A program made the position numbers and the translations under genes. Below, one piece after another: positions 619-62,473 of a stretch of 64,000 nt of DNA (position 1 is its first letter; the number at the start of each line of letters is the position of its first letter). The DNA comes from Tortispora ganteri. Taxonomy: Eukaryota. Under the pieces are notes generated by a model. It did no database searches. It had not been told where the DNA came from and saw only the letters and a program-made list of their open reading frames with translations. Where the stretch lies: assembly GCA_003707115.1 (NCBI GenBank), contig PPNB01000003.1:186001-250000 (forward strand), in the 5' to 3' direction.

Positions 619-2789
<2,171 letters not shown>

Positions 2790-2948: not shown

Positions 2949-4424
2949 TTATGCAGAAGCCGAAGCTGAGGCCTGTGCTTGCTCATCATTATTAGGTTTC
3001 CTGGATTTGTGTTTCGTAGGTTTGGATGATTGTTCAGGAATCGGCTGAGTAGCATCCTGTGGCTTTCCGTCACTTTCAAGTCTTTGGATCATCTCAGAGT
3101 ATTGGTTAGCTACGAAGTAGAGCGGGTCGACGCGATCTTCAGGAGGTAGCGATAAAGAATCGACAGCTCGTTTGGTGACAAGAACATAGCGAAATGGAGA
3201 TCCTGGTATTTCATAGTTCGCGTTTAGAAGAACACGTTCCATTATGCTTCTAAGACCACGCGCGCCAGTGCCCTGAGAGTATGCAATTTCGCCAATGGCA
3301 TATAGTGCAGCTTCACTAAACCTAAGATCAACTTCAAACGTGGAGAATTTAGCCTGGTACTGTTTGACTAAAGAGTTCTCAGGTTCTGTCAGAATTGCTA
3401 CTAATTCTGCTTTAGATAGATGATTGAGCTTAGAGATGACGGGGATGCGACCGATTAGTTCTGGTATAAAACCATAGGTAATCAGGTCTTCCGATATGTC
3501 ATCATAGGTGCAGATGGTATCAGTTGAACTTGCAGAATTTGAGTCTCTGGTGAACCCAATCTTTCCAGCATTGAGTCGGCGCGATATGATCTTTTCAAGC
3601 CCCGTGAACGCCCCAGTGAATATGAACAATATATTAGCAGTATTGATCGGTGTTTTCTCGCCCTTAGCAGGAGTAGTAAAATCACTACCAGCAGGCGACG
3701 CTTCAGCAGAATAAGAGTTGTGAGGAGCTGTGGACGATGGGGAAGTTGGAATTGTGGTTCTAGGTCTCAGTACTTTAGCAGGGACATAAGTAGTTGTTCC
3801 TTCGATCATTTTGAGCAGCGCCTGCTGGACGCCTTCACCAGAAACATCACGTGTGCCATTAACAGTAGGGCGTCTAGCAATTTTATCGAATTCGTCGAGT
3901 ACGATGATACCGCGTTCGGTTCTGTCTATGTCCATACCGGAGTTCTCAAGGAGCATCTGGATGCAACGTTCTGGGTCGTCGCCCACGTAGCCGGCCTGCG
4001 TGAATGTTGTGCAATCAGCAATAGCAAATGGTACATCAAGATGTTTTGCGAGGGTTTCTGCGAGCAGCGTCTTGCCTGTGCCGGTGGGCCCCCAGAGCAG
4101 TATGTTTGATTTAGAGATAGGGATCTTCTTGAATGACGAAGAGAGTGGGGAAGGCTGAGGCGTAGTAGAAATAGAATCTGTCTCGGCAGAATCTAACGCG
4201 TCAGATGGTTCAGATGATTCAGACGGTTCGAGCGATGCAATTGGCGGAAGGTAATCGTCAAGTATACGCAGTTTGTGATTGAAACCATGCACAGCAAGGA
4301 CACGTTTCGGGATTGGCTGGCCAACTACATGTTTATTAAATGTTTCGACAAGTTGCTTCGGAGTTGTAGGAAGAAAGCTAGAGTAATATCGAATTTGGAA
4401 TCTTATCAAGTGGCGATGAATCAT
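2949..4424 (-). CDS. MCX1: Mitochondrial ClpX AAA+ chaperone
   Basis: KSNILLWGPTGTGKT, TQAGYVGDD, LDEFDKI, RDVSGEGVQQALLKMIEG, GARGLRSIME ClpX motifs; ATG 4424 gives a presequence-like N-terminus (an in-frame ATG at 4484 is also possible). Confidence 0.92.
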   Translation of the reverse strand: MIHRHLIRFQIRYYSSFLPTTPKQLVETFNKHVVGQPIPKRVLAVHGFNHKLRILDDYLPPIASLEPSESSEPSDALDSAETDSISTTPQPSPLSSSFKKIPISKSNILLWGPTGTGKTLLAETLAKHLDVPFAIADCTTFTQAGYVGDDPERCIQMLLENSGMDIDRTERGIIVLDEFDKIARRPTVNGTRDVSGEGVQQALLKMIEGTTTYVPAKVLRPRTTIPTSPSSTAPHNSYSAEASPAGSDFTTPAKGEKTPINTANILFIFTGAFTGLEKIISRRLNAGKIGFTRDSNSASSTDTICTYDDISEDLITYGFIPELIGRIPVISKLNHLSKAELVAILTEPENSLVKQYQAKFSTFEVDLRFSEAALYAIGEIAYSQGTGARGLRSIMERVLLNANYEIPGSPFRYVLVTKRAVDSLSLPPEDRVDPLYFVANQYSEMIQRLESDGKPQDATQPIPEQSSKPTKHKSRKPNNDEQAQASASASA

Positions 4425-4578
4425 TGTAGAACAGTGATATAAAATGTAGGCGAATGGGCGATAAGCGGCTAGTGGCAGGCACATGGGGGCGGGATTGTGC
4501 CTGTCCTATAAAGTCCCATCTAGTCAACTATGTAAAGTCTGGTCGGGTACTGGTGCTGGGTACTGCTGCGAATCTCAG

Positions 4579-5247
4579 TCAAAAGCCATTATGGAGCTCT
4601 TTTTCCCATTCAAAGAAATGAGTCCAGTGTAGGTTTGTGTGGTCGCCGATGGATCGAGTGGAGGACTGTATAAAATGCCGTATGGCAGTGAACATCTGAA
4701 ACGCGCAAATGTCGGGGTCGACACCGCCCACGCCGGTTCCCAAACCACTAAGGATTAGGGTTTTTATCGAGTCATTGCTTGAGACGGCGTTGAGAAGGCT
4801 CCAGGTGCATTCATAGACGCGGTGTGGATCTTGTATGCGCGAAGGAACACGCATTGTTGGAGTGAGCGCAAGGTAGCGGCAATTGAGCGCGTTCGGGAGA
4901 TGGTTGAGGTCGATAATGGTGGTGGTGCCAACAGGGAGATGACCGTGGTAGTGAGTGAATAGATGCGAGCGTATATGTTTGCCAAACGATACGATATCAG
5001 TGTTTTTACTTGCGAACAAGTTTGATATTGCGAGATCAAATCCTCCTTCCATTATACCGTAGGAGTTAGCCGGGCTGACTATGCAGTCTACATCCATATT
5101 TACGTCCTCCAGAGTGCCTTCGACTATTTGTACTTCCCAATGAGAACTTGGAAACAGCGACACCGCTTTCAAATTTTTGCGCCAAGCACTGACTAAAGCA
5201 GGATTTCTATCTAAAAGGATTATTTTGAGTTTTTTAAGACTTGACAT
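4579..5247 (-). CDS. Macro-domain (ADP-ribose binding / Appr-1''-p processing) protein
   Basis: DCIVSPANSYGIMEGGFDLAI, PTMRVP and GLGTGVGGV macro-domain motifs; N-terminal IILLDRNPALVSAW strand-helix typical of the fungal family. Confidence 0.85.
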   Translation of the reverse strand: MSSLKKLKIILLDRNPALVSAWRKNLKAVSLFPSSHWEVQIVEGTLEDVNMDVDCIVSPANSYGIMEGGFDLAISNLFASKNTDIVSFGKHIRSHLFTHYHGHLPVGTTTIIDLNHLPNALNCRYLALTPTMRVPSRIQDPHRVYECTWSLLNAVSSNDSIKTLILSGLGTGVGGVDPDICAFQMFTAIRHFIQSSTRSIGDHTNLHWTHFFEWEKELHNGF

Positions 5248-6316
5248 GGATGAATATTCAGTGGTAAACGATATTTCGCAAAGACGTTATAATCCGTTGA
5301 CGGATTCTTGGGTGTTGGTGTCTCCACACCGAGCAAAACGGCCTTGGCAGGGTCAGCAGGAGGTCCCTGATAAATCGAAGCGTCCTCCTTATGATGATAA
5401 ATGTTATTTGTGTCCAAGAAATACGCGTGCTGAAGGTACTAAAAATGATGATTATAAGTCTACTTATGTATTTATGAACGATTTCGCTGCGCTGAAGGAA
5501 ACACAGCCAGAGTATACGCCGCCAACCAACAGATCGTCTCAAGAGTCGCATTTATTCCAGCTAGAACCAGTTACTGGTAAGTGTTATGTTATATGTTTCT
5601 CACCGCGTCACGATTTGACTCTCGCGCAGATGCCTCCTAAAGATATTGAGCCGGTGATCCGCACGTGGCAGATGATCTACAAGGAGGCCATCTCCTTGGC
5701 AAACATTGCACATTGTCAGATCTTCGAGAACAAGGGCGCAATGATGGGTTGCTCCAACCCTCACCCGCATGGACAGGTATGGATGTCTTCCATTGTGCCA
5801 GAAGAGCCTGCAAAGGAACGCGCTGCACTATACAAATATTACAACGAGCATGGAACCCATATGCTAGAAGACTACGCCGCTATTGAGTCCAAGACAAAAC
5901 AGAGAGTCGTGTTTGAAAACGATATGTTTATCGCGCTTGTTCCCTTCTGGGCCGTATGGCCTTACGAAATTTTGGTGCTGCCACGACGGCGCGTAGCGCG
6001 CATATCTGATCTTACACCCGAAGAAGTGTCAGCGTTTGCACAGATAATCTCTCAAGTAACTGTGCGTTACGACAATCTGTTCTCCTGCTCGTTCCCATAC
6101 TCTATGGGTATTCACCAGGCATGCACGGACGCATCAATTGACGACAATTGTGATCATCTCCATATGCATTTCTATCCGCCATTACTGCGATCTGCCACTG
6201 TGCGTAAATTCCTCGTTGGATTCGAGCTCATGGCGATGCCGCAACGTGACATCACTGCTGAAATGGCAGCTGGAACGCTCAGATCGTTATCAGCAGTGCA
6301 CTACTTGCATGATTGA
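5246..6316 (+). CDS. GAL7: Galactose-1-phosphate uridylyltransferase
   Basis: RRYNPLTDSWVLVSPHRAKRPWQGQ, CYLCP, FENKGAMMGCSNPHPHGQ active site, RSATVRKFLVGFE; first in-frame ATG is 5246. Confidence 0.96.
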   Translation: MDEYSVVNDISQRRYNPLTDSWVLVSPHRAKRPWQGQQEVPDKSKRPPYDDKCYLCPRNTRAEGTKNDDYKSTYVFMNDFAALKETQPEYTPPTNRSSQESHLFQLEPVTGKCYVICFSPRHDLTLAQMPPKDIEPVIRTWQMIYKEAISLANIAHCQIFENKGAMMGCSNPHPHGQVWMSSIVPEEPAKERAALYKYYNEHGTHMLEDYAAIESKTKQRVVFENDMFIALVPFWAVWPYEILVLPRRRVARISDLTPEEVSAFAQIISQVTVRYDNLFSCSFPYSMGIHQACTDASIDDNCDHLHMHFYPPLLRSATVRKFLVGFELMAMPQRDITAEMAAGTLRSLSAVHYLHD

Positions 6317-6725
6317 ACGATATCTTTTACCTGATTGGTGGTTCTATATGTGTGATAAGAATTATCCCCGATATTTCCTTATACTTTTAAGTTCGATTGC
6401 TCATAGAGTTCGGCTGATGTACACTTTTCCCTTCTGACGGCTGCCACAAGAAACATTGGTACGCCGCTTAAATCACTGGTCGAACAAAATTTAAAAAGCA
6501 TCAAGGAATATCAATTATTTTTATATTGATGCCATTTTGCTGTCAATTTTAATCTATCGACGCACACATGCAGCTTCATGCAAGAATATGCTATACCCCT
6601 ATAATCTAAATTATTAGATAAAGTTTAGCGTTCTGGCTTTTTTTCCGCCTAAGGGGACGTACTTACTTAAATAGGACTGCATCGTATTTCTCCTGCAAAT
6701 TTTTGTATAGACCTAACAAAAACAC

Positions 6726-8141
6726 ATGAGATTGACAGACTTGACAATTATTCTTGGTGCGCCTATCGCTAGTGCGAAGATCATTGGCGCCGTCGTTTAT
6801 GGAAGACATGGTGACAGAACACCTAAAGCGATGGGCTCTGCTGAGTTGACCATTCTCGGAAGAAATCAGATGTTTTCGGCTGGTGATTACCACCATGATC
6901 GATACATATCCAATAGTTCAAATTACTACCTCGATGGCATTGATGCAATCGAGAATTTGACACAGTATATGTCTGCGACCAATATTGGCGGCTCTGCGGT
7001 GTTGTTTGATTCAGCGACTACCTTCAATCAGGCGCTATTCCCCAAAATTGCTGACGAGTCTATCACGCTCGTTAACGGATCAGAATATTCTGATCCTATG
7101 GATGGTATTCAGTATGTTTCTTTGTTTGCTGCTGCCCCAGGCAGCTCGGAATTTGTTTACCTAGACGGAAACAATGATTGTCCTGCATGGGTTACGGCTT
7201 CGAACTCGTACATGCAATCTGAGAGCTTCAAGGCTACCAATGCAAGCACTGCCGAGTTTTACGCCGGGTTCAAGGATGTGATCCAATCGCTGAACCCCAA
7301 AACCAGTGTTAAGTACAACTATGGCGGAGCCTACACCGTATTTGACATCATCAACTACGGCATTAACCACGTCGCCAGCGTCGCCGACCAGGTCAGCGAC
7401 GAGCAATATTTCCAGCTTAGAACTCTTGCTGATACGTACTCCTGGAATTTAATTTATAACGAGAGTCAGCCTTTAAGATCAATTGCAGGTCGCACTATGC
7501 TTGCACAGATTCAGGACCAAATTTCTGCTATTGCTGCCAATCGTGGTTCCGACCGCAAACTCGCCTATATTGCCGGCTCGTATGACACAATTCAATCTGG
7601 CTGGTTCTTGATGAATCTTCCCCAGAGAAACCCAGGATTCTACGCAATTCCCGACTATGCTGCCACAATGGTATTTGAAGTGCATGAATCAGACTCTGGT
7701 GACTTAACTGTGCAATTCGGTTTCCGCAACACTACGCTCGGAGAAGGCGCTGAGTACGAGATGATTCCTGTTTTCGACTTTGATAGCGTTGACATGGATT
7801 ACACCACTTTTATGAACAAGATGGATGATGTGACTCTGAATGATATAAGCGAATGGTGTACTCAGTGCAATGCATGGAGCCTCGATATTTGTGCATCCAC
7901 CAAGAGTTTGCAGGAAACCCAGGCGCAATTGAGTGCGTTGCAGAGCTCAAACGATGACGAGCTTTCTGCTGCTGCCGGTGGTGGTATTGGCGCTGGTGTG
8001 ACTATTGGTGTTTTTGCTATTGCAGGTGCTCTTTTCTATCTTTTCCGTCGCAACAAGAAATCCGCTGTGTCGCCCAAGGCAACTCTTCCTGTTGTTGAAA
8101 GAGCTGCTAGTGAATCTTCCAAGGGCAGCACTTTGGGTTAA
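6726..8141 (+). CDS. Histidine acid phosphatase family, signal peptide plus C-terminal TM helix
   Basis: RHGDRT motif, hydrophobic N-terminus, GIGAGVTIGVFAIAGALFYLF TM followed by basic RRNKK. Confidence 0.85.
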   Translation: MRLTDLTIILGAPIASAKIIGAVVYGRHGDRTPKAMGSAELTILGRNQMFSAGDYHHDRYISNSSNYYLDGIDAIENLTQYMSATNIGGSAVLFDSATTFNQALFPKIADESITLVNGSEYSDPMDGIQYVSLFAAAPGSSEFVYLDGNNDCPAWVTASNSYMQSESFKATNASTAEFYAGFKDVIQSLNPKTSVKYNYGGAYTVFDIINYGINHVASVADQVSDEQYFQLRTLADTYSWNLIYNESQPLRSIAGRTMLAQIQDQISAIAANRGSDRKLAYIAGSYDTIQSGWFLMNLPQRNPGFYAIPDYAATMVFEVHESDSGDLTVQFGFRNTTLGEGAEYEMIPVFDFDSVDMDYTTFMNKMDDVTLNDISEWCTQCNAWSLDICASTKSLQETQAQLSALQSSNDDELSAAAGGGIGAGVTIGVFAIAGALFYLFRRNKKSAVSPKATLPVVERAASESSKGSTLG

Positions 8142-27961: not shown

Positions 27962-30403
27962 ATGATGTTCCGTGCTGCTATTCGCCAGGCAGCTGTTCGA
28001 GCTCTTCGCGCTTCTGCCGTATCGGTATGTATAATTTGATTGACTAGTACTGTTGTATTTTTCTCCGAGCTTTCTTCCTGCTGCGCTTACCGGTGCTGCC
28101 GGCCTTCTTCCCGGCTACTTCGACACTTTGTTGTGTGTGCTTCAAAGGCACTACACTCTTGTAGTTCTCATGCTAATTTCATCGGATTATGTTCCAAACA
28201 CTCTAGTGTTTCTTTTTGCCGCGAATTGTTCTCATATCCGACGAATTGCTCATAGCTAATTGAACTACTGCCTCCTGGCTTCTCGACACCGGGGCTCTTT
28301 CTTCGTAACCGCTGCACTGCCTCAGTATTGACCGGAACGTGCCAGTGCTTTATTTTCTTGCTAAAATACTTTCGAAATGCATCTACCTATGGAATTGAGG
28401 ACTTAAGTCAGGGAAATAATGCACATGCTGCTACAATACATATCTTTCTACGGCAACTTATACTAACATTATTAGACCCGTACTGTTGCTCGTCGTGGCC
28501 TTGCCGACGCTAAACCCGCCCCCACAGAAGTTTCCTCTATCCTTGAGGAACGTATCCGCGGTGTGTCTGCTGACGCTGCTCTCTCTGAAACAGGACGTGT
28601 ATTGTCTGTTGGGTAAGTATTCTATTGATTTTTCTTTTCAACCACTCTTCTTTGCACTGCGGCCTTCACCCCTGGCGGATTCTGCCTGCAACGCGCGTTC
28701 CGCAGGTTTTAGTTTTCTACCGCTAATAAAACATCTGTCAAGGGTGTTTCATTTATTTAGAATATTTCCTTGCGTTTCTCTGGTTCAGCTGCTCCCTTGC
28801 TCGCTATTTTCGCCTTTTTTACGCCTTGGTGTTATTTCCTCCCGAACCCGGCTTACCGAGACCTCTATAACTTTATTTACTCGCAGGATAAAGTTATGGC
28901 TGAACTCTCGAGCATGCATTCTTCGAGTTGAAGTCTAGAAATATTCACCGAATGGACAACTAACAAATTTATAGTGACGGTATTGCTCGTGTTCATGGCC
29001 TGAGCAATGTTCAGGCTGAAGAATTGGTCGAGTTCGCTTCTGGTGTTAAGGGTATGGCCCTTAACTTGGAAGCCGACCAAGTCGGTATTGTATTGTTCGG
29101 CTCTGACAGAGAGATTAAGGAAGGTGAAACCGTTAAGCGTACTGGTGAGATTGTTTCCATTCCCGTTGGTCCCGAACTTCTCGGACGTGTCGTAGATGCT
29201 CTCGGTAACCCCATTGACGGCAAGGGCCCTCTCAACGCCAAAGAGCATCGCCGTGCCCAGATGAAAGCTCCTGGTATCTTGCCTCGACGCTCTGTATTTG
29301 AGCCTATGCAGACTGGCTTGAAGTCTGTTGATGCCTTGGTACCTGTCGGACGTGGTCAGCGTGAACTTATCATTGGTGACCGTCAGACTGGTAAGACCGC
29401 CGTCGCTCTTGACACTATACTTAACCAAAAGCGATGGAACAACGGCAGTGACGAGAGCAAGAAGCTTTACTGCGTCTACGTTGCAGTTGGTCAAAAACGA
29501 TCCACTGTCGCCCAACTTGTAAAGACCCTTGAGGACAATGATGCCCTTAAGTACTCCATCATTGTTGCTGCCACTGCATCTGAGGCAGCTCCTCTTCAAT
29601 ACCTTGCTCCTTTCTCTGGTGCTGCTATTGGTGAATGGTTCCGTGACAATGGCCGCCACGGTTTGATTGTTTTTGATGATTTGTCCAAGCAAGCTGTTGC
29701 CTACCGCCAGCTTTCTCTTTTGCTTCGCCGTCCCCCTGGACGTGAGGCTTACCCTGGTGATGTCTTTTACCTCCACTCTCGTCTTTTGGAGCGCGCTGCT
29801 AAGATGTCCGATAAGTTTGGTGGTGGATCTCTGACTGCCTTGCCTGTTATTGAGACTCAAGGTGGTGATGTCTCTGCTTACATTCCCACTAATGTCATTT
29901 CCATTACCGATGGACAGATTTTCTTGGAAGCTGAACTTTTCTACAAGGGTATCCGTCCTGCCATTAATGTCGGTCTTTCCGTCTCCCGTGTCGGATCTGC
30001 TGCTCAAGTCAAAGCCATGAAGCAGGTTGCTGGTTCTATGAAGCTTTTCCTTGCCCAGTATCGTGAAGTTGCTGCTTTCGCTCAGTTCGGTTCTGATCTT
30101 GATGCCTCTACTAAGCAGACCTTGGTCCGTGGTGAACGTCTTACTCAGTTACTTAAGCAGAAGCAGGCATCTCCTCTTGCTTTCGAAGAGCAAGTTCCCG
30201 TTATCTATGCCGGTGTCAATGGTTTCATCGACAACATCCCTGTCGACAAGGTTTCTCAATTTGAAGCTGATTTCCTTGCCCATTTGAAGTCCTCTGAGAG
30301 TGATTTCATTGCTACTCTTGCCGAACAAGGTGAGTTGTCTCCCGAGAACATGGAGAAGCTCAAGAAGATCACTTCTGACTTCACTGCATCCTACTCCGCT
30401 TAG
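27962..30403 (+). CDS. ATP1: Mitochondrial F1-ATP synthase alpha subunit; join(27962..28024,28476..28612,28975..30403)
   Basis: Presequence [18 protein letters not shown]; splicing restores [38 protein letters not shown] and [21 protein letters not shown]. Confidence 0.97.
28025..28475 (+). other. ATP1: ATP1 intron 1 (451 nt)
   Basis: GTATGT 28025, TACTAAC 28461-28467, TAG 28473-28475. Confidence 0.9.
28613..28974 (+). other. ATP1: ATP1 intron 2 (362 nt)
   Basis: GTAAGT 28613, AACTAAC 28958-28964, TAG 28972-28974; joins SVG|DG. Confidence 0.92.
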
Positions 30404-57303: not shown

Positions 57304-58248
57304 ATGCCTCCCTCTGCGATCTATTTGGACGACACTGAAGACGAGCTAGATGAATTAGACGAGCTGTCTAATATCGACTTTCGGCGTCGTGGGGTTTGGG
57401 GCTCGTTGCAATATGTAGGACTTTCATTTGCGAAGACTATCAAAAAGATGTCGCTTGCCCAGCTCGCTTTTGTCACAGTTTTCGGCACATTTGGGTTCAT
57501 TCTAGCCGTGCTCTTTTTGGTCTATTATAAGACAATTCTCGGCTCTCTGGGTCCTTTGAGGTCCTGGTGGAAAGAGCAACCGTTTGGATGGGCTCTTATG
57601 ATTGCTATACTGATGGCTGTATCCTGTCCGCCTGTGCTCGGCTATGCGACATCCTGCACTCTCTGTGGGGTAGTCTACGGCGTATTTAAAGGCTGGTTTG
57701 TGGCCGCCGTAGGCTCGATTCTCGGTGCTGCTGCTACATTCTTGCTCTATCGTTTTCTATTACATGACTTTGCCGAAAGATTATTACAAAGTAACAAGAA
57801 GTTCAAGGCGTTCAACCGCACGCTCGAGTATGATGGGCTGTTCTTGCTATTCCTCATCCGCCTTTGCCCATTGCCTTTCTCGGTATCGAACGCCGCATTA
57901 TCAGCTATTTCCTCTGTTTCTTTCACTAATTTCGTTCTGGCCTCTATTATGGCCTCGCCTAAGATATTTTCGTACACTTTTAGTGGTGCACAACTGGAGG
58001 CAATTGGTGAGAACACTTCCGCCTCGTCGAAGTTTATACATGTAATGTACATCGTTCTAAATATAGTTATAACTCTGTCTGTGGCCTATTATATCTATCA
58101 GCGAACAATGAAGCGCATTGCAGAGCTCGAGATCGAGCACAACATACCGGCTGCGGGCGCTGCCGGAACCGCGCGATCGATCAACGAGGATATCGAATCG
58201 GACGCTTACGATAGATTCAACCCAGATACAGATATGGTCGATCTTTGA
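57304..58248 (+). CDS. TVP38: Tvp38 / DedA (SNARE-associated) Golgi membrane protein
   Basis: PPVLGY, YGVFKGW, LIRLCPLPFSVSN motifs; multiple TM helices. Confidence 0.88.
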   Translation: MPPSAIYLDDTEDELDELDELSNIDFRRRGVWGSLQYVGLSFAKTIKKMSLAQLAFVTVFGTFGFILAVLFLVYYKTILGSLGPLRSWWKEQPFGWALMIAILMAVSCPPVLGYATSCTLCGVVYGVFKGWFVAAVGSILGAAATFLLYRFLLHDFAERLLQSNKKFKAFNRTLEYDGLFLLFLIRLCPLPFSVSNAALSAISSVSFTNFVLASIMASPKIFSYTFSGAQLEAIGENTSASSKFIHVMYIVLNIVITLSVAYYIYQRTMKRIAELEIEHNIPAAGAAGTARSINEDIESDAYDRFNPDTDMVDL

Positions 58249-58251
58249 ACA

Positions 58252-59535
58252 CTATTCGGTCCCGATAATGTCCATCCACTTCTTGCCGTTCAGCTCGGCT
58301 ACAATCTCGTCCCTTATTTTGAGTGCCATTCCGGCTCCCCCGTATATCATTGATGTGTAAAGCTGCACAAATGTTGCACCGGCTTTGGCGTACGCAATAG
58401 CATCTTTGCCTGAACTGATACCTCCACAACCAATAATAGTGATATTGTCGCCGATATTTTTACGTAGCACACGCAGCACCGACAGCGTTTTCTCTTTTAA
58501 GGGCGCACCCGAGAGCCCGCCGGTCTCAGCTTTGAGACTGGGCTCGGATCGCAATGTAGGAGGACGATCCACAGTTGTGTTGGCGACAATAACGCCATCA
58601 ACTTTGGCGCTACGCAAAACATGCGAAATAGACTCTACTTCAGGAATAGAAAGATCTGGAGCGATCTTTACGCACAGCGGTATGCGGAACGGCAGCTGGC
58701 TGCGCGCCTCTAGGACTTGGTCTAACAGCGCCTTCAGTCGTGACTCATTTTGTAAATCGCGCAAACCTGGTGTATTTGGGCTTGAAATGTTGATAACTAC
58801 AACATCCGCATAAGGGCCGAGCGTCAGCAGGCCGCGGACATAGTCGGCAGCCTCATCCGTCGACGTCTTGTTCTTGCCAAGGTTCACGGCGAGTAGTCGG
58901 TTCGATCGCAGCGAGTTATTGCGCGGCATAATACCACTATGTGCGCGGTAGTAGCTGTATAGTCGTTGACGCAATCTGACAAGCACTTTTACGGCGCCGT
59001 CGGAATTGAAGCCGTACCTATTTATTACTGCAAGGTCCTCAGGCAAGCGAAAGACACGCGGTTTGGGATTCCCCGGTTGCGGTTCCGGCGTTATAGATCC
59101 TATTTCTACGTATGAGAATCCGAGATCGAATAGTCCGTCAATTGCCTCTCCATTCTTGTCGAACCCGGCTGCTAGACCCACAGGACTATCGAGAGTGCTA
59201 TTAAAAACCTTTACCTCTAAGTTTTGCGGCGGCGCTGTATGCTCCCATGGTGTTATTCTGTATTTCAATGCCTCTATAGCAAATCTATGTGCACTTTCTG
59301 CATCGAGTAGCAGTCGAAGGAGTGGAGCAGATACGAATCTATGGAAAGCAGCGTCTGCATAGGTGTAGTACACGCTGAAGGTGACAATACCGCCTATTGC
59401 CAACGCACCAATAACACCATTCCTGAAACGCAGAGGTACAATTGGTTGTCTATATGTAGACTTTTTCCTAGTAGAGGAGATATGGCGAAATACACCGTTA
59501 AACCTACGCAAATTTGCGCGACTCTGCCTCAACAT
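58252..59535 (-). CDS. URA9: Mitochondrial (class 2) dihydroorotate dehydrogenase
   Basis: Presequence plus TM, GLAAGFDKN, QPGNPKPRVFRL, INRYGFNS, NISSPNTPGLR, VKIAPDL, GGLSG. Confidence 0.95.
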   Translation of the reverse strand: MLRQSRANLRRFNGVFRHISSTRKKSTYRQPIVPLRFRNGVIGALAIGGIVTFSVYYTYADAAFHRFVSAPLLRLLLDAESAHRFAIEALKYRITPWEHTAPPQNLEVKVFNSTLDSPVGLAAGFDKNGEAIDGLFDLGFSYVEIGSITPEPQPGNPKPRVFRLPEDLAVINRYGFNSDGAVKVLVRLRQRLYSYYRAHSGIMPRNNSLRSNRLLAVNLGKNKTSTDEAADYVRGLLTLGPYADVVVINISSPNTPGLRDLQNESRLKALLDQVLEARSQLPFRIPLCVKIAPDLSIPEVESISHVLRSAKVDGVIVANTTVDRPPTLRSEPSLKAETGGLSGAPLKEKTLSVLRVLRKNIGDNITIIGCGGISSGKDAIAYAKAGATFVQLYTSMIYGGAGMALKIRDEIVAELNGKKWMDIIGTE

Positions 59536-59912: not shown

Positions 59913-60767
59913 ATGATGAATCCGTACGGTTTCAGGGCATATGGACCAAGAAGCAGAAAAGGACTTCCGGTGTCGAATCTGGGGAAGTACTGCCTAACAG
60001 CAGGGTATCTTGTCAGTTTAAGGTCTAATTCAAGTGATGCAACAAGTATGCTTCTTCGAGCCTACTCAATATCAAGTTGCGCTAGCAGTGACCAGTACAG
60101 CACTGACACAGAGTATGTTGGAAAAGGGAAATCAATCTGCGACGGTGCAAGCTACATGTCTGCGGAAGATAGAGTGCCTGTTGATTCATATATGAGTGTC
60201 GAGAACACTTATCTAACGGCAAATAAAAAGAACGGGGTGCAATGCAGCGATAGTCTGTTGAATTATTATCTGGAGACTCCGTGTATTGAGCTGAATCCCC
60301 CTGAAGCGGTTGTTGCTGATACATCTGCGAGTAACAGCGTGAATAAAGCTACAAACACAATAGTATCTGTTAAGCAAAGTAAAGCTAATATCAGCAACTA
60401 TATAGCACCGACAGTTTATAGTGCAGGAGTGGATTTGACAAAAATAGCGCTATCGGGGGATATGAGGACAGCTATGTCTCAAGAGCCGCCAGGCAGAGGT
60501 AACAAAACTCTAGACAATTGCACATTTCGTAAAAGAGCGATATTTTGTTGCAATATTACATTGAGATGCTGCAGCTGGTCAAATACAAAAGAAGCAGAAG
60601 AGGAGACGGGGGCAAGTGAGCCTTTAGTAAGAGAGTCGTCAGTATCTAATGCGATTCGAACATGGAGCAGCAAGGTGAGTGGAAAGGCAATTGCTCATTA
60701 TAACTCTATTAAACATGATCCAGAAGTGAGCAGAAACATATTTGGTAAACACAGGACGTTTATGTAA
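59913..60767 (+). CDS. Hypothetical Ser-rich protein, start uncertain
   Basis: 284-codon ORF, no recognisable domain. Confidence 0.5.
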   Translation: MMNPYGFRAYGPRSRKGLPVSNLGKYCLTAGYLVSLRSNSSDATSMLLRAYSISSCASSDQYSTDTEYVGKGKSICDGASYMSAEDRVPVDSYMSVENTYLTANKKNGVQCSDSLLNYYLETPCIELNPPEAVVADTSASNSVNKATNTIVSVKQSKANISNYIAPTVYSAGVDLTKIALSGDMRTAMSQEPPGRGNKTLDNCTFRKRAIFCCNITLRCCSWSNTKEAEEETGASEPLVRESSVSNAIRTWSSKVSGKAIAHYNSIKHDPEVSRNIFGKHRTFM

Positions 60768-60808: not shown

Positions 60809-62473
60809 ATGGACATAATTAAGCAATTTAGAAAGGTAATAAAGGGATGTATTAAAGATAAAAAACTCAATGAAAATGTTATTGACCAATTAAAATTATT
60901 ATCAAAGTCAAGTTCATTGAAACTGAAAGATCAGGAGTATATTCAATTGATGAAATTGACTAGACCTATGACGATTGATTTGCGGTTCAAATGTTATCTC
61001 ACTATAGGCAATGTTTGGTTGAAAGAAAGTGGAGATATTGATGTTTTAGCTAAATATCGAAACTATTGTTCATTATATTTATTCTTATTACAGAAAATCG
61101 ACAAAAAGCAAGCTATGAAACTATACAATGAGATTAAAATGAAAGACAACTGGTGGAGTCACATCGGTGTGCGACTAACTATAAGAAGCGCTTATAGAAA
61201 CAGTATACTAAGTTCAAAAATTGATCTAATAGCAAGATCGGTAAACTCACAGTTTAGAGGTTCAATTGCCAAAGAAATGGTGAAAAAGTACGAAATTGAA
61301 CGTAATCGGAAACTTGTTGAATGGCTGCCAGAAGGAGACAGTGATCTGTTCAGGGTGCTGCTCAAATACAAAGACCTCACAAATGCGGAGAAGTTTGCGA
61401 AATTAACAAAAAATCAGCTACAAATAGACTCAATTAAAAATATTCGGAATCTGCTGAATACATACGGGGACAAACAGAGTGTATATAGTGCGAGATTAAA
61501 CAGTATCGGGAACGGTCAGCCTGTTACAAGATCCCCCGAAGTGTTGACAGCCTGGTATAAAATAGCGAAGAAAGCTGTGAAAAAATCAGTAATATCAAGC
61601 AAATTGATCAACGCAATATATAAAAGAGAATCGTTTAACGAGTTCGATACCGCGTTTCAACAAGTGAGTTTAATAAACCTGGACTTATCTATGCAGATAC
61701 TTGAACTTCTGGAACATATAAATAAGCAATCGCGGTCACTGTTAAGAAACAAAGACACGAATTTGCTGCATTTACCACAACTCACAGACACATTTTATAT
61801 AACGGTCGTGAATACAGCATTGAAGAACAATAATTATACCCTCGCATTGTCAATACCATCGAGAATGATTCAACACGGAATTGAAATCAATCCTAAAATA
61901 TACCAAATGATCCTCTTGAAGTCAATAAAGGACTCAAAACACCAGTATATAACAACTGTCTATCAAGACATTGTTAGTAACTTTGCAACAATCGATGAAA
62001 AAACTTACAACCTCTTATGGGTATCGATATCTGACTATTACTGGAACAGCATTCAACCGTATGGCCAGTTGATTCCAGTAGATAATTTATTAAGATTGTA
62101 TAATGAGCAAAATATCAGCGGATCATATAAATTGTTCAAGGCAATGCTTGAAGGCTGTCTTATTCAGAACGATTTCATTGGCACCATATTAGTGCTTGAA
62201 CGCATGTTTATAAACACTAAGCTCCAGTTCAATACCGAAATAGCAAAGGATTTATTCTTCGTCATATGCGCCAATTCAAAGGTCGACAAAACTCACACAA
62301 CAAAGAAAAAACGTTGGATTGATGTGCATACAAGACAAAGGGCACTTGAATTGCAGAAATATCCAATCAACGAATGGCAAGATCTCGCACTTATTCTTTA
62401 CTTTGAATCTGGAATGGATTCAGAAGAATTTCAAAAAACGCTAGACCAGAGACGGGATCAGACCAATCCCTGA
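60809..62473 (+). CDS. Putative pentatricopeptide-repeat (PPR)-like protein
   Basis: 554-aa helical ORF with PPR-like units (FYITVVNTALKNNNYTLALSIPSRMIQHGIEIN; KIYQMIL; EKTYNLL; LFKAMLEGC). Confidence 0.55.
   Translation: MDIIKQFRKVIKGCIKDKKLNENVIDQLKLLSKSSSLKLKDQEYIQLMKLTRPMTIDLRFKCYLTIGNVWLKESGDIDVLAKYRNYCSLYLFLLQKIDKKQAMKLYNEIKMKDNWWSHIGVRLTIRSAYRNSILSSKIDLIARSVNSQFRGSIAKEMVKKYEIERNRKLVEWLPEGDSDLFRVLLKYKDLTNAEKFAKLTKNQLQIDSIKNIRNLLNTYGDKQSVYSARLNSIGNGQPVTRSPEVLTAWYKIAKKAVKKSVISSKLINAIYKRESFNEFDTAFQQVSLINLDLSMQILELLEHINKQSRSLLRNKDTNLLHLPQLTDTFYITVVNTALKNNNYTLALSIPSRMIQHGIEINPKIYQMILLKSIKDSKHQYITTVYQDIVSNFATIDEKTYNLLWVSISDYYWNSIQPYGQLIPVDNLLRLYNEQNISGSYKLFKAMLEGCLIQNDFIGTILVLERMFINTKLQFNTEIAKDLFFVICANSKVDKTHTTKKKRWIDVHTRQRALELQKYPINEWQDLALILYFESGMDSEEFQKTLDQRRDQTNP

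What the first reader, a model, noticed from the sequence alone, without database searches (positions are those of the whole stretch)
4579..6316. GAL7 and a divergent macro-domain gene start in the same CATG: no intergenic promoter at all
Seen: bases 5245-5248 are CATG; ATG 5246-5248 is the first in-frame ATG of GAL7 (+), 13 codons before the conserved RYNPL, and CAT 5245-5247 is the start of the macro-domain ORF (-), whose first strand/helix (IILLDRNPALVSAW) follows at once. The next in-frame Mets would remove conserved sequence from either protein. Established: divergent yeast genes normally share a nucleosome-depleted spacer. Inference: each gene's promoter and 5'UTR must lie inside the other's coding sequence, so the mRNAs overlap antisense at their 5' ends and the polymerases initiate toward each other, a layout that could give mutual exclusion or galactose-dependent switching between two nucleotide-sugar-handling enzymes.
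Basis: partly seen in the sequence, partly recalled or inferred. Interest (0 to 1): 0.8.

Follow-up and report, generated by a model that had tools for sequence, protein, structure and literature searches.

The report
Two yeast genes sharing start-codon bases
In a very compact yeast genome, the galactose gene GAL7 and a conserved macro-domain gene on the opposite strand begin inside the same four bases (CATG). That leaves no DNA between them for a promoter, though whether and how both are transcribed remains untested.

Summary
CATG at 5245-5248 holds the first ATG of GAL7 (5246-6316, +) and, on the other strand, the first ATG of a 222-aa Macro2-type (YMR087W-like) macrodomain ORF (4579-5247, -). 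Both genes are real and intact. GAL7 is 94% identical, without gaps and with the same Met start, to Tortispora caseinolytica GAL7. The macro ORF is 90% identical without gaps to the macro part of the next T. caseinolytica gene model, the same level as the flanking MCX1/ClpX.

Neither start can move downstream. The macro N-terminus forms strand 1 and helix 1 of the fold (AlphaFold2 pLDDT 85-98) and carries two near-invariant residues. The window's downstream Met (M51) is Ser in T. caseinolytica. An independently assembled contig crosses the junction with no indel, and no canonical intron signals offer an escape.

The other 7 divergent spacers in the window are 162-1640 bp, so this pair is an outlier. 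Embedded leaders or promoters have only weak sequence hints: a 301-nt ATG-free antisense stretch (P about 0.03) and AT-biased synonymous sites.

Expression, start-site overlap and any galactose switch are untested, because no RNA run was listed. [quoted passage not shown] Interest is moderate.

The parts
5245..5248 (.). CATG shared by the two start codons (ATG of GAL7 on +, CAT = ATG of the macro gene on -); 2-base overlap of the coding sequences
   Evidence: a contig spans it without indel
5246..6316 (+). GAL7, galactose-1-phosphate uridylyltransferase, 356 aa, single exon
   Evidence: Pfam N and C domains; 335/356 identical, 0 gaps and the same Met1 as T. caseinolytica ODV91335.1; the N-terminal length fits 12 orthologues
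4579..5247 (-). Macro2-type (YMR087W/Ymx7-like) macrodomain gene, 222 aa, single exon
   Evidence: Pfam Macro_2/Macro; best solved relative is 1njr by sequence (E 1.6e-12) and by fold (E 2.9e-11, 208 columns); AF2 mean pLDDT 93.9; 172/192 identical with 0 gaps to T. caseinolytica ODV91336.1 residues 3-194
5143..5245 (+). Candidate GAL7 leader / core-promoter zone inside the macro N-terminal codons. It is ATG-free on + for 103 nt and AT-rich (GC 0.28 at 5196-5245).
   Evidence: ATG-free length P=0.25, not significant; GC in the lowest 1.9% of 4068 coding 50-mers; GC3 0.16 against 0.43 expected for codons 2-20, P=0.012, but 2 of 26 other ORFs deviate more over codons 2-35. Inference only.
5248..5548 (-). 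Candidate macro-gene leader inside GAL7 codons 2-101: 301 nt with no ATG on the - strand
   Evidence: longest of 27 ORFs in the window (next is 216 nt); P=0.027 under synonymous resampling. Inference only.
5375..5485 (-). AT-rich trough inside GAL7 (GC 0.30-0.36; GC3 0.22 against 0.46 expected), 130-240 nt upstream of the macro ATG. Possible site of the macro core promoter.
   Evidence: P=0.002, but the segment was picked after seeing the profile, so the P value is inflated. Speculative.
4485..4578 (.). 94-nt spacer between the macro stop codon and the first ATG of the MCX1 ORF. 3 of the 9 places listed as differing between window and contigs lie here.
2949..4484 (-). MCX1/ClpX-like AAA+ gene, immediately downstream of the macro gene on the same strand. 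In T. caseinolytica it is merged with the macro gene into one 655-aa model.
   Evidence: Pfam AAA_2, ClpB_D2-small; 406/451 identical to ODV91336.1 residues 195-645

Best explanation
This is a genuine head-to-head pair of two functional single-exon genes in a very compact Tortispora-type yeast genome. Their coding sequences abut and share 2 bases of a CATG.

With no spacer, whatever directs GAL7 transcription and forms its 5' leader must lie in the first roughly 100-150 bp of the macro gene's coding sequence, which is an AT-rich, ATG-free zone. Whatever serves the macro gene must lie in the first roughly 100-300 bp of GAL7's coding sequence, which is ATG-free on that strand for 301 nt. The two mRNAs would then overlap antisense over tens to a few hundred nucleotides at their 5' ends.

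Shown:
- the layout;
- the integrity and conservation of both proteins;
- the need for both first Mets;
- the absence of canonical splice signals that could bring in a distant start site.

Inferred: that both genes are transcribed, where initiation occurs, and that the layout results from genome compaction rather than from selection for a switch.
For: - Layout.
- GAL7: Pfam match; 94% identity, 0 gaps and the same Met as the T. caseinolytica orthologue; N-terminal length typical of 12 orthologues.
- Macro family: Pfam match; closest solved relative is yeast Ymx7/1njr, aligned from query residue 2.
- Macro N-terminus: homologues begin 0-4 residues before the same first strand. D13 and W22 are present in at least 90% of 71 family members. 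The AF2 model places residues 7-13 in a strand and 16-28 in a helix, with block pLDDT of 85, 98 and 93.
- Purifying selection on the macro ORF: 172/192 identical and 185/192 similar, with 0 gaps, to T. caseinolytica. That equals MCX1 next door (406/451).
- Downstream Mets are not shared: M51 is Ser in T. caseinolytica, and the T. caseinolytica model's Met aligns with K27 of the window.
- Synteny: the T. caseinolytica model spans macro plus MCX1. Its accession (ODV91336.1) directly follows that of GAL7 (ODV91335.1), and both are listed with a longest contig of 3,113,199 bp, consistent with one scaffold.
- Assembly: a contig bridges the junction with no indel.
- No intron escape: there are 0 matches to GTA[ACT]GT on the + strand in 4300-5245. 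On the - strand the only matches lie at 6662/6666, beyond the far end of GAL7. The real introns of ATP1 and ATP2 in this window use GTAAGT/GTATGT and ACTAAC.
- Compaction: the 8 convergent spacers are 3-697 bp (6 of the 8 are under 160 bp), and the other 7 divergent spacers are 162-1640 bp (coordinates, families).
- Weak hints of embedded leaders.
Against: - There is no transcript evidence of any kind. No RNA holder was listed, and that blank says nothing either way.
- The DNA of T. caseinolytica could not be read. It is therefore unknown whether its macro ORF also runs up to a CATG shared with GAL7. Its public model starts 26 codons further in.
- The sequence hints are weak. The ATG-free 103 nt before GAL7 is not significant (P=0.25). 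The 301-nt stretch has P=0.027 for a single locus. The AT bias of macro codons 2-35 (z=-1.9) is exceeded by 2 of 26 other ORFs. The GAL7 AT trough was chosen post hoc.
- The macro start has a poor context (T at -3, read), so efficient initiation there is not assured.
Confidence: 0.6

Rival explanations
1. The macro gene is made in a shorter or different form than the full ORF: from an internal start (as in the T. caseinolytica model, or M51 here), or it is barely expressed or not expressed. The CATG overlap would then have no consequence for transcription, and GAL7 would simply use the macro gene's 5' part as its promoter.
For: The public T. caseinolytica model begins at a Met aligned with K27. 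The context of the first ATG is poor (T at -3). No RNA evidence was available (a blank only).
Against: The candidate internal starts are not shared between the two species: K27 here against Met there, and M51 here against Ser there. Residues 1-28 form strand 1 and helix 1 at pLDDT 85-98 and hold the near-invariant D13 and W22. The homologue 1njr aligns from residue 2. 90% identity without gaps argues for a working protein.
Confidence: 0.17
2. One or both genes are transcribed from a distant start site, either with a long leader or with a 5'UTR intron. For example, GAL7 could start in the 4485-4578 spacer with the macro gene nested in an intron. The promoters would then not be embedded next to the CATG.
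For: T. caseinolytica is described as comparatively intron-rich for a budding yeast (PMC5499181, passage). ATP1 and ATP2 in this window have 5' introns. A weak CTGAC...CAG lies at 5189-5201, 45 nt before the GAL7 ATG.
Against: There is no GTA[ACT]GT donor on + anywhere in 4300-5245 (0 matches). The four branch sites read in this window are all ACTAAC, not CTGAC. Unspliced long leaders would carry 14 upstream ATGs for GAL7 and 19 for the macro gene.
Confidence: 0.1
3. The macro domain is expressed as an N-terminal fusion with ClpX/MCX1 through splicing, as the 655-aa T. caseinolytica model suggests.
For: Model ODV91336.1 joins macro residues 29-220 to MCX1 residues 54-end.
Against: In the window, the bases after the codon of N220 read GGCTTT, not GT, so the same donor does not exist here. 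The fusion would also drop MCX1's first 53 residues, and the macro ORF ends in its own stop two codons later. I read the model as a merge of two closely packed genes. That reading is inference, because I could not see the data behind the model.
Confidence: 0.05
4. Assembly artefact: a short spacer was lost at 5245-5248.
For: None found.
Against: A 3805-nt contig from a separate assembler (Logan), at depth about 71, covers 4417-7000 with 0 gaps. Both reading frames are intact and orthologue-like right up to the junction. Caveat: the run may be the window's own source, and only contigs, not raw reads, were available.
Confidence: 0.02

Closest known systems
Head-to-head (divergent) overlapping protein-coding gene pairs, e.g. 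human INO80E/HIRIP3 (PMC11890862, abstract and outline) and the human genome survey (PMC6746723, passages)
   Same: Two protein-coding genes on opposite strands whose 5' ends overlap. Regulatory sequence for each necessarily lies within the other gene.
   Different: As I recall, the overlaps in those cases involve alternative 5' exons or UTRs of long, intron-bearing genes. Here the coding sequences themselves meet, the start codons share bases, both genes are single-exon, and there is no non-coding DNA at all. Overlap of the transcripts is not demonstrated here.
Overlapping transcription in compacted eukaryotic genomes such as Encephalitozoon cuniculi (PMC3629993, search listing and start of abstract only; the wider literature is recalled, not read here)
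   Same: Loss of intergenic DNA forces signals and transcript ends into neighbouring genes. In this window 6 of 8 convergent spacers are under 160 bp and one is 3 bp.
   Different: This is a free-living budding yeast of about 9-10 Mb (run size; T. caseinolytica is 9.2 Mb, PMC5499181), not an intracellular parasite. The other 7 divergent spacers here keep 162 bp or more.
S. cerevisiae YMR087W / Ymx7 (PDB 1njr), the one studied Macro2-type macrodomain, an ADP-ribose-1''-phosphate phosphatase (PDB title; PMC6397177, passage)
   Same: Same Pfam family. It is the best match by sequence (E 1.6e-12, query residues 2-194) and by fold (E 2.9e-11, 30% identity over 208 columns).
   Different: Only about 30% identical. 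The closest sequence relatives (36-42%) are from unnamed assemblies, a chytrid and basidiomycetes or filamentous ascomycetes. The activity is untested.
T. caseinolytica NRRL Y-17796 locus CANCADRAFT_3043 / CANCADRAFT_3044 (ODV91335.1 / ODV91336.1)
   Same: Orthologous GAL7 (94%), macro (90%) and MCX1 (90%), with consecutive accessions and the same listed longest-contig length.
   Different: The public annotation lacks the first 26-28 macro codons and fuses the remainder to MCX1. Whether the CATG overlap exists there could not be read.
The classical yeast divergent GAL1-GAL10 promoter (recalled, from no call)
   Same: A divergent pair that includes a GAL gene.
   Different: That pair shares a spacer of several hundred bp carrying the upstream activating sites. 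Here the spacer length is minus 2 bp. No CGG-N11-CCG site occurs in 4000-6500 (0 matches), and no GAL1 or GAL10 family was found among the 34 of 36 ORFs of at least 150 aa that were scanned.

Membership tests
Galactose-1-phosphate uridylyltransferase (GAL7/GALT, HIT superfamily) | Both Pfam GalT domains above the gathering score, full length | tested here: met
   PF01087 231.2 bits (cut-off 22.1), profile positions 7-184 of 184; PF02744 206.4 bits (cut-off 29.2)
Galactose-1-phosphate uridylyltransferase (GAL7/GALT, HIT superfamily) | Conserved His-Pro-His active-site motif and N-terminal Cys pair (their roles are recalled, not tested) | tested here: met
   H173 P174 H175 and C53, C56 are invariant columns in the 13-sequence alignment
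Galactose-1-phosphate uridylyltransferase (GAL7/GALT, HIT superfamily) | Enzyme activity / growth on galactose | not testable with these tools
   No assay was possible. No statement on galactose use by Tortispora was found in the passages shown for PMC11449361 (12 of 16 places) or in the search listing.
Macro2-type macrodomain (YMR087W/Ymx7 family) | Pfam Macro_2 above the gathering score | tested here: met
   61.2 bits against a cut-off of 27
Macro2-type macrodomain (YMR087W/Ymx7 family) | Closest solved structure is Ymx7, by both sequence and fold, including the N-terminal strand | tested here: met
   1njr is the only PDB sequence hit at E<=0.01, with query residues 2-194 aligned. It ranks first in Foldseek at E 2.9e-11; rank 2 is at 1.1e-05.
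Macro2-type macrodomain (YMR087W/Ymx7 family) | Family-invariant residues retained | tested here: met
   All 6 invariant and 12 near-invariant columns of the 71-sequence alignment are present in the window protein
Macro2-type macrodomain (YMR087W/Ymx7 family) | ADP-ribose-1''-phosphate phosphatase activity | not testable with these tools
   Needs an enzyme assay
[quoted passage not shown] | Opposite strands, divergent, 5' ends overlap | tested here: met
   The coding sequences overlap by 2 bases. Overlap of the transcripts follows only if both have leaders.
[quoted passage not shown] | Both partners are functional genes | tested here: met
   94% and 90% identity without gaps to the sister species, with intact folds and motifs. 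Function is inferred from conservation.
[quoted passage not shown] | Both transcribed, with overlapping 5' ends | not testable with these tools
   No RNA run was listed for this organism
[quoted passage not shown] | Overlap conserved in related species | tested here: inconclusive
   Gene order appears conserved in T. caseinolytica, but its DNA could not be read and its macro model is truncated at the 5' end

The most novel reading that the evidence does not exclude
The zero-spacer layout is maintained by selection across Tortispora as a transcriptional-interference toggle. Initiation for GAL7 inside the macro coding sequence and initiation for the macro gene inside GAL7 would exclude each other. 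Induction of GAL7 would then shut off the ADP-ribose-1''-phosphate phosphatase, and the reverse, without any dedicated intergenic regulatory DNA.
Probability: 0.12. Interest if true: 0.6.

Novelty: new member of a known kind. Interest (0 to 1): 0.4.

Why it matters
In budding yeasts a divergent gene pair is the textbook case of a shared nucleosome-free promoter. A pair of conserved, intact genes with no spacer at all would be a natural test of how small a Pol II promoter can be, and of whether it can work entirely inside coding sequence. It would also test what head-on initiation does to the expression of each partner.

There is a practical point too. Gene callers mis-model such loci. The public T. 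caseinolytica annotation appears to have cut off the macro N-terminus and fused the rest to ClpX/MCX1, so similar cases may be hidden in compact fungal genomes.

Without transcript data this remains a single-locus curiosity.

Tried and rejected
- RNA evidence: the look-up of sequencing runs listed no RNA holder. This is a blank, not evidence.
- Whole genome: none is held for this window. I therefore could not count zero-spacer pairs genome-wide or look for paralogues.
- Sister-species DNA: no tool here reaches eukaryotic genome records, so conservation of the CATG overlap could only be approached through proteins.
- Earlier findings of this scan: nothing at this place or for this protein. The two 'relatives' hits were unrelated bacterial galK/galT loci sharing 3-4 of 180 words.
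- Intron escape routes were rejected.
- Gal4-type CGG-N11-CCG sites: none in 4000-6500.
- A slip of mine: the first line of the resampling test ('P(0)=0.0000') is an artefact, because I appended the next codon, which is itself CAT. The valid figure is the second test (P=0.027).
- The ATG-free 103 nt before GAL7 is not significant (P=0.25).
- AT bias at the 5' end of the macro gene is not unique in the window.
- The microsporidian paper PMC5499648 (passages) gave nothing on embedded promoters.
- Literature: six full-text searches. Their listings, and the passages I read, showed no description of this locus or of start-codon overlap between divergent genes in a budding yeast. The library is partial and I read only listings and selected passages.
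- The bacterial promoter/terminator scanner was not used, because it does not apply to a yeast.
Full report
**What is there**

Bases 5245-5248 read CATG. On the + strand, ATG 5246-5248 opens a 356-aa ORF running to 6316. On the - strand, CAT 5245-5247 is the ATG of a 222-aa ORF running to 4579. The two coding sequences therefore share two bases, and no base lies between them.

The + ORF is galactose-1-phosphate uridylyltransferase (Pfam PF01087 E 1.6e-68, PF02744 E 3e-61). The - ORF carries a macrodomain (PF14519 Macro_2 E 1.3e-16, PF01661 E 1.6e-08).

**Organism**

The best GAL7 relative among 8000 scored candidates is T. caseinolytica NRRL Y-17796 (ODV91335.1). It shows 335/356 identical residues, no gap and the same length; the next hits are at 60%. 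The window therefore comes from a close relative in the same genus. I did not determine the species.

T. caseinolytica has a 9.2-Mb genome with 4657 genes and is described as relatively intron-rich for a budding yeast (PMC5499181, passages). The DNA runs that hold the window total about 9.5 million letters of contigs.

**Is the junction real?**

A 3805-nt Logan contig at depth about 71 covers 4417-7000 with 0 gaps. No difference falls in 5200-5300, and no joints or loose ends are reported. X1 and X2 have identical depths and record lengths, so I treat them as one data set, which may be the window's own source.

Nine places are listed as differing between the window and these contigs:
- three lie in the 94-nt macro-MCX1 spacer (4549, 4562, 4571);
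- one is synonymous in the macro gene (4594, L218);
- one in GAL7 is synonymous (5755, S170) and one is not (5925, M227T);
- one is synonymous in MCX1 (3885, D200);
- two lie downstream of GAL7 (6379, 6707).

**Must GAL7 start at 5246?**

- The upstream in-frame stop is at 5141, with no ATG in between.
- The next in-frame Met is M77, which comes after invariant columns R13 to F76, including C53 and C56.
- The T. caseinolytica protein starts at the same Met. Its first 12 residues match 10 of the window's 12.
- Twelve orthologues begin about 8-17 alignment columns (6-15 residues) before the RRYNPL block, as the window protein does.

**Must the macro gene start at 5247?**

- The upstream in-frame stop is 14 codons up (5287-5289), with no ATG in between. 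The next Met is M51.
- In an 18-sequence alignment, homologues begin 0-4 residues before the strand that aligns with residues 7-14 of the window protein.
- In a 71-sequence alignment, D13 and W22 are conserved in at least 90% of members.
- The only solved relative by sequence, yeast Ymx7/YMR087W (1njr), aligns from query residue 2.
- An AlphaFold2 model (mean pLDDT 93.9, pTM 0.92) puts residues 7-13 in strand 1, 16-28 in helix 1 and 37-43 in strand 2. Block pLDDT is 85, 98, 93 and 80.
- Foldseek ranks 1njr first (E 2.9e-11, 208 columns, 30% identity), well ahead of other macrodomains (1.1e-05 and weaker).

Starting at M51 would delete strand 1, helix 1 and strand 2.

**Is the macro gene alive?**

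The word-indexed search found nothing closer than 41%. The exhaustive representative search then found a 655-aa protein at 90% identity, which is T. caseinolytica CANCADRAFT_3044, ODV91336.1.

- Its residues 3-194 match macro residues 29-220: 172/192 identical, 185/192 similar, no gap.
- Its residues 195-645 match MCX1/ClpX residues 54-501 of the window's next gene: 406/451 identical.

The macro ORF is thus as conserved as its housekeeping neighbour, with no frameshift or stop. That argues for purifying selection.

The model appears to be a merge of two tightly packed genes. In the window the bases after the codon of N220 are GGCTTT, which is not a GT donor, and the macro ORF has its own stop two codons later. 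The model starts with a Met aligned to K27 of the window, while the window's M51 is Ser in T. caseinolytica. Neither internal Met can therefore be a start shared by both species.

Whether the T. caseinolytica ORF continues up to GAL7's ATG is unknown, because I could not read its DNA. Consecutive accessions, and the same longest-contig length listed for both proteins, suggest that the order MCX1-macro-GAL7 is conserved.

**Could introns rescue a normal promoter?**

The window has real 5' introns in ATP1 and ATP2. Their donors are GTAAGT or GTATGT, and ACTAAC branch sites sit about 10 nt before YAG.

- On the + strand from 4300 to 5245 there is no GTA[ACT]GT at all.
- On the - strand upstream of the macro ATG, the only such donors are at 6662/6666, beyond GAL7's stop codon. 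The only branch-like site there is a weak CTGAC at 6032.
- Unspliced long leaders would carry 14 upstream ATGs for GAL7 and 19 for the macro gene.

I therefore reject this route at about 0.1.

**How unusual is it locally?**

I used the ORFs of at least 150 aa and their families (34 of 36 scanned).

| Pair type | Spacers (bp) |
|---|---|
| Other 7 divergent pairs | 162, 230, 377, 484, 544, 1465, 1640 |
| 8 convergent pairs | 3, 73, 74, 82, 89, 154, 159, 697 |

The genome is tightly packed and 3' ends must often overlap, but this divergent pair is a clear outlier. The macro gene is squeezed at both ends, because its stop lies only 94 nt from the first ATG of the MCX1 ORF.

**Hints of embedded leaders or promoters (all weak)**

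1. On the - strand there is no ATG for 301 nt upstream of the macro start (5248-5548). That is the longest such stretch among the 27 ORFs tested (next is 216 nt), and P=0.027 when GAL7 codons are resampled synonymously with the window's codon usage.
2. On the + strand the 103 nt before GAL7's ATG are ATG-free, which is not significant (P=0.25).
3. GC falls to 0.28-0.36 across 5175-5275. The 50 nt before GAL7's ATG are in the lowest 1.9% of 4068 coding 50-mers.
4. Macro codons 2-20 have GC3 of 0.16 against 0.43 expected (P=0.012), while the rest of the gene is at 0.53. However, AT-rich 5' coding ends are common: 2 of 26 other ORFs deviate more over codons 2-35.
5. A second AT trough in GAL7 (5375-5485, GC3 0.22 against 0.46) lies 130-240 nt upstream of the macro ATG. 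I picked it after seeing the profile.

These observations fit leaders and core promoters inside the partner's coding sequence. They do not prove it.

**Mechanism**

If both genes are expressed, and their conservation says they are used, each needs a capped leader. Initiation for GAL7 must then occur inside the macro coding sequence, and initiation for the macro gene inside GAL7. The result would be antisense-overlapping 5' ends and head-on polymerases over a short stretch. This is inference.

Whether it causes interference, co-expression or nothing is open. In a human survey, divergent overlapping pairs tend to be co-expressed (PMC6746723, passages). For INO80E/HIRIP3 the overlap is reported to stabilise expression (PMC11890862, abstract). 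'Mutual exclusion' is therefore not the default expectation.

The proposed functional link is thin. The only studied Macro2-type enzyme dephosphorylates ADP-ribose-1''-phosphate, a product of tRNA splicing (PMC6397177, passage).

**Comparison and novelty**

[quoted passage not shown] This locus is a new and extreme member, with start codons sharing bases in a free-living budding yeast.

The listings of my six literature searches, and the passages I read, showed no description of it. The library is partial, and I read only listings and selected passages.

**Verdict**

- Observation: confirmed.
- Regulatory part: untested.
- Interest: 0.4.

Noticed in passing
window 2949-5247 (-), compared with protein P0241: The public T. 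caseinolytica gene model CANCADRAFT_3044 (ODV91336.1, 655 aa) looks like a chimera. It joins the macro gene without its first 26-28 codons to MCX1/ClpX without its first 53 residues. The window has a stop codon and no GT donor at the corresponding junction.
   Followed up: partly
window 57304-58248 (+) and 58252-59535 (-): A VTT-domain gene and a dihydroorotate dehydrogenase gene converge with only 3 bp between their stop codons, so their 3' ends must overlap. This is another sign of extreme compaction.
   Followed up: no
window 4424-4578: The MCX1 ORF's first ATG is 94 nt downstream of the macro stop. A second Met 20 codons further in (MIHRHLIRF...) looks like a more plausible mitochondrial presequence start. 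Either way, MCX1's promoter must overlap the 3' end of the macro gene.
   Followed up: no
window 1090-1420 and 28460-28975: ATP2 and ATP1 both have 5' introns, apparently two each, one flanking a micro-exon of about 22 nt in ATP2. Donors are GTATGT or GTAAGT, and ACTAAC branch sites sit only about 10 nt before the acceptor.
   Followed up: partly
window 4579-5247 (-): The closest relatives of the macro protein outside Tortispora (36-42% identity) come from unnamed assemblies, a chytrid, basidiomycetes and filamentous ascomycetes. S. cerevisiae YMR087W is much more distant (E 1.6e-12). The gene's history within budding yeasts may be patchy.
   Followed up: no
window 59913-60767 (+) and 60809-62473 (+): Two ORFs with no Pfam family lie on the same strand only 41 bp apart. 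They may be one gene split by an intron or a frameshift.
   Followed up: no
window 1-64000: GAL7 is not clustered with GAL1 or GAL10 here. No GHMP-kinase or epimerase family appeared among the 34 of 36 ORFs of at least 150 aa that were scanned.
   Followed up: partly
window 5925: The contigs of the DNA runs differ from the window by T>C, changing GAL7 M227 to T. T. caseinolytica has Ala at this position, so the site is variable.
   Followed up: partly
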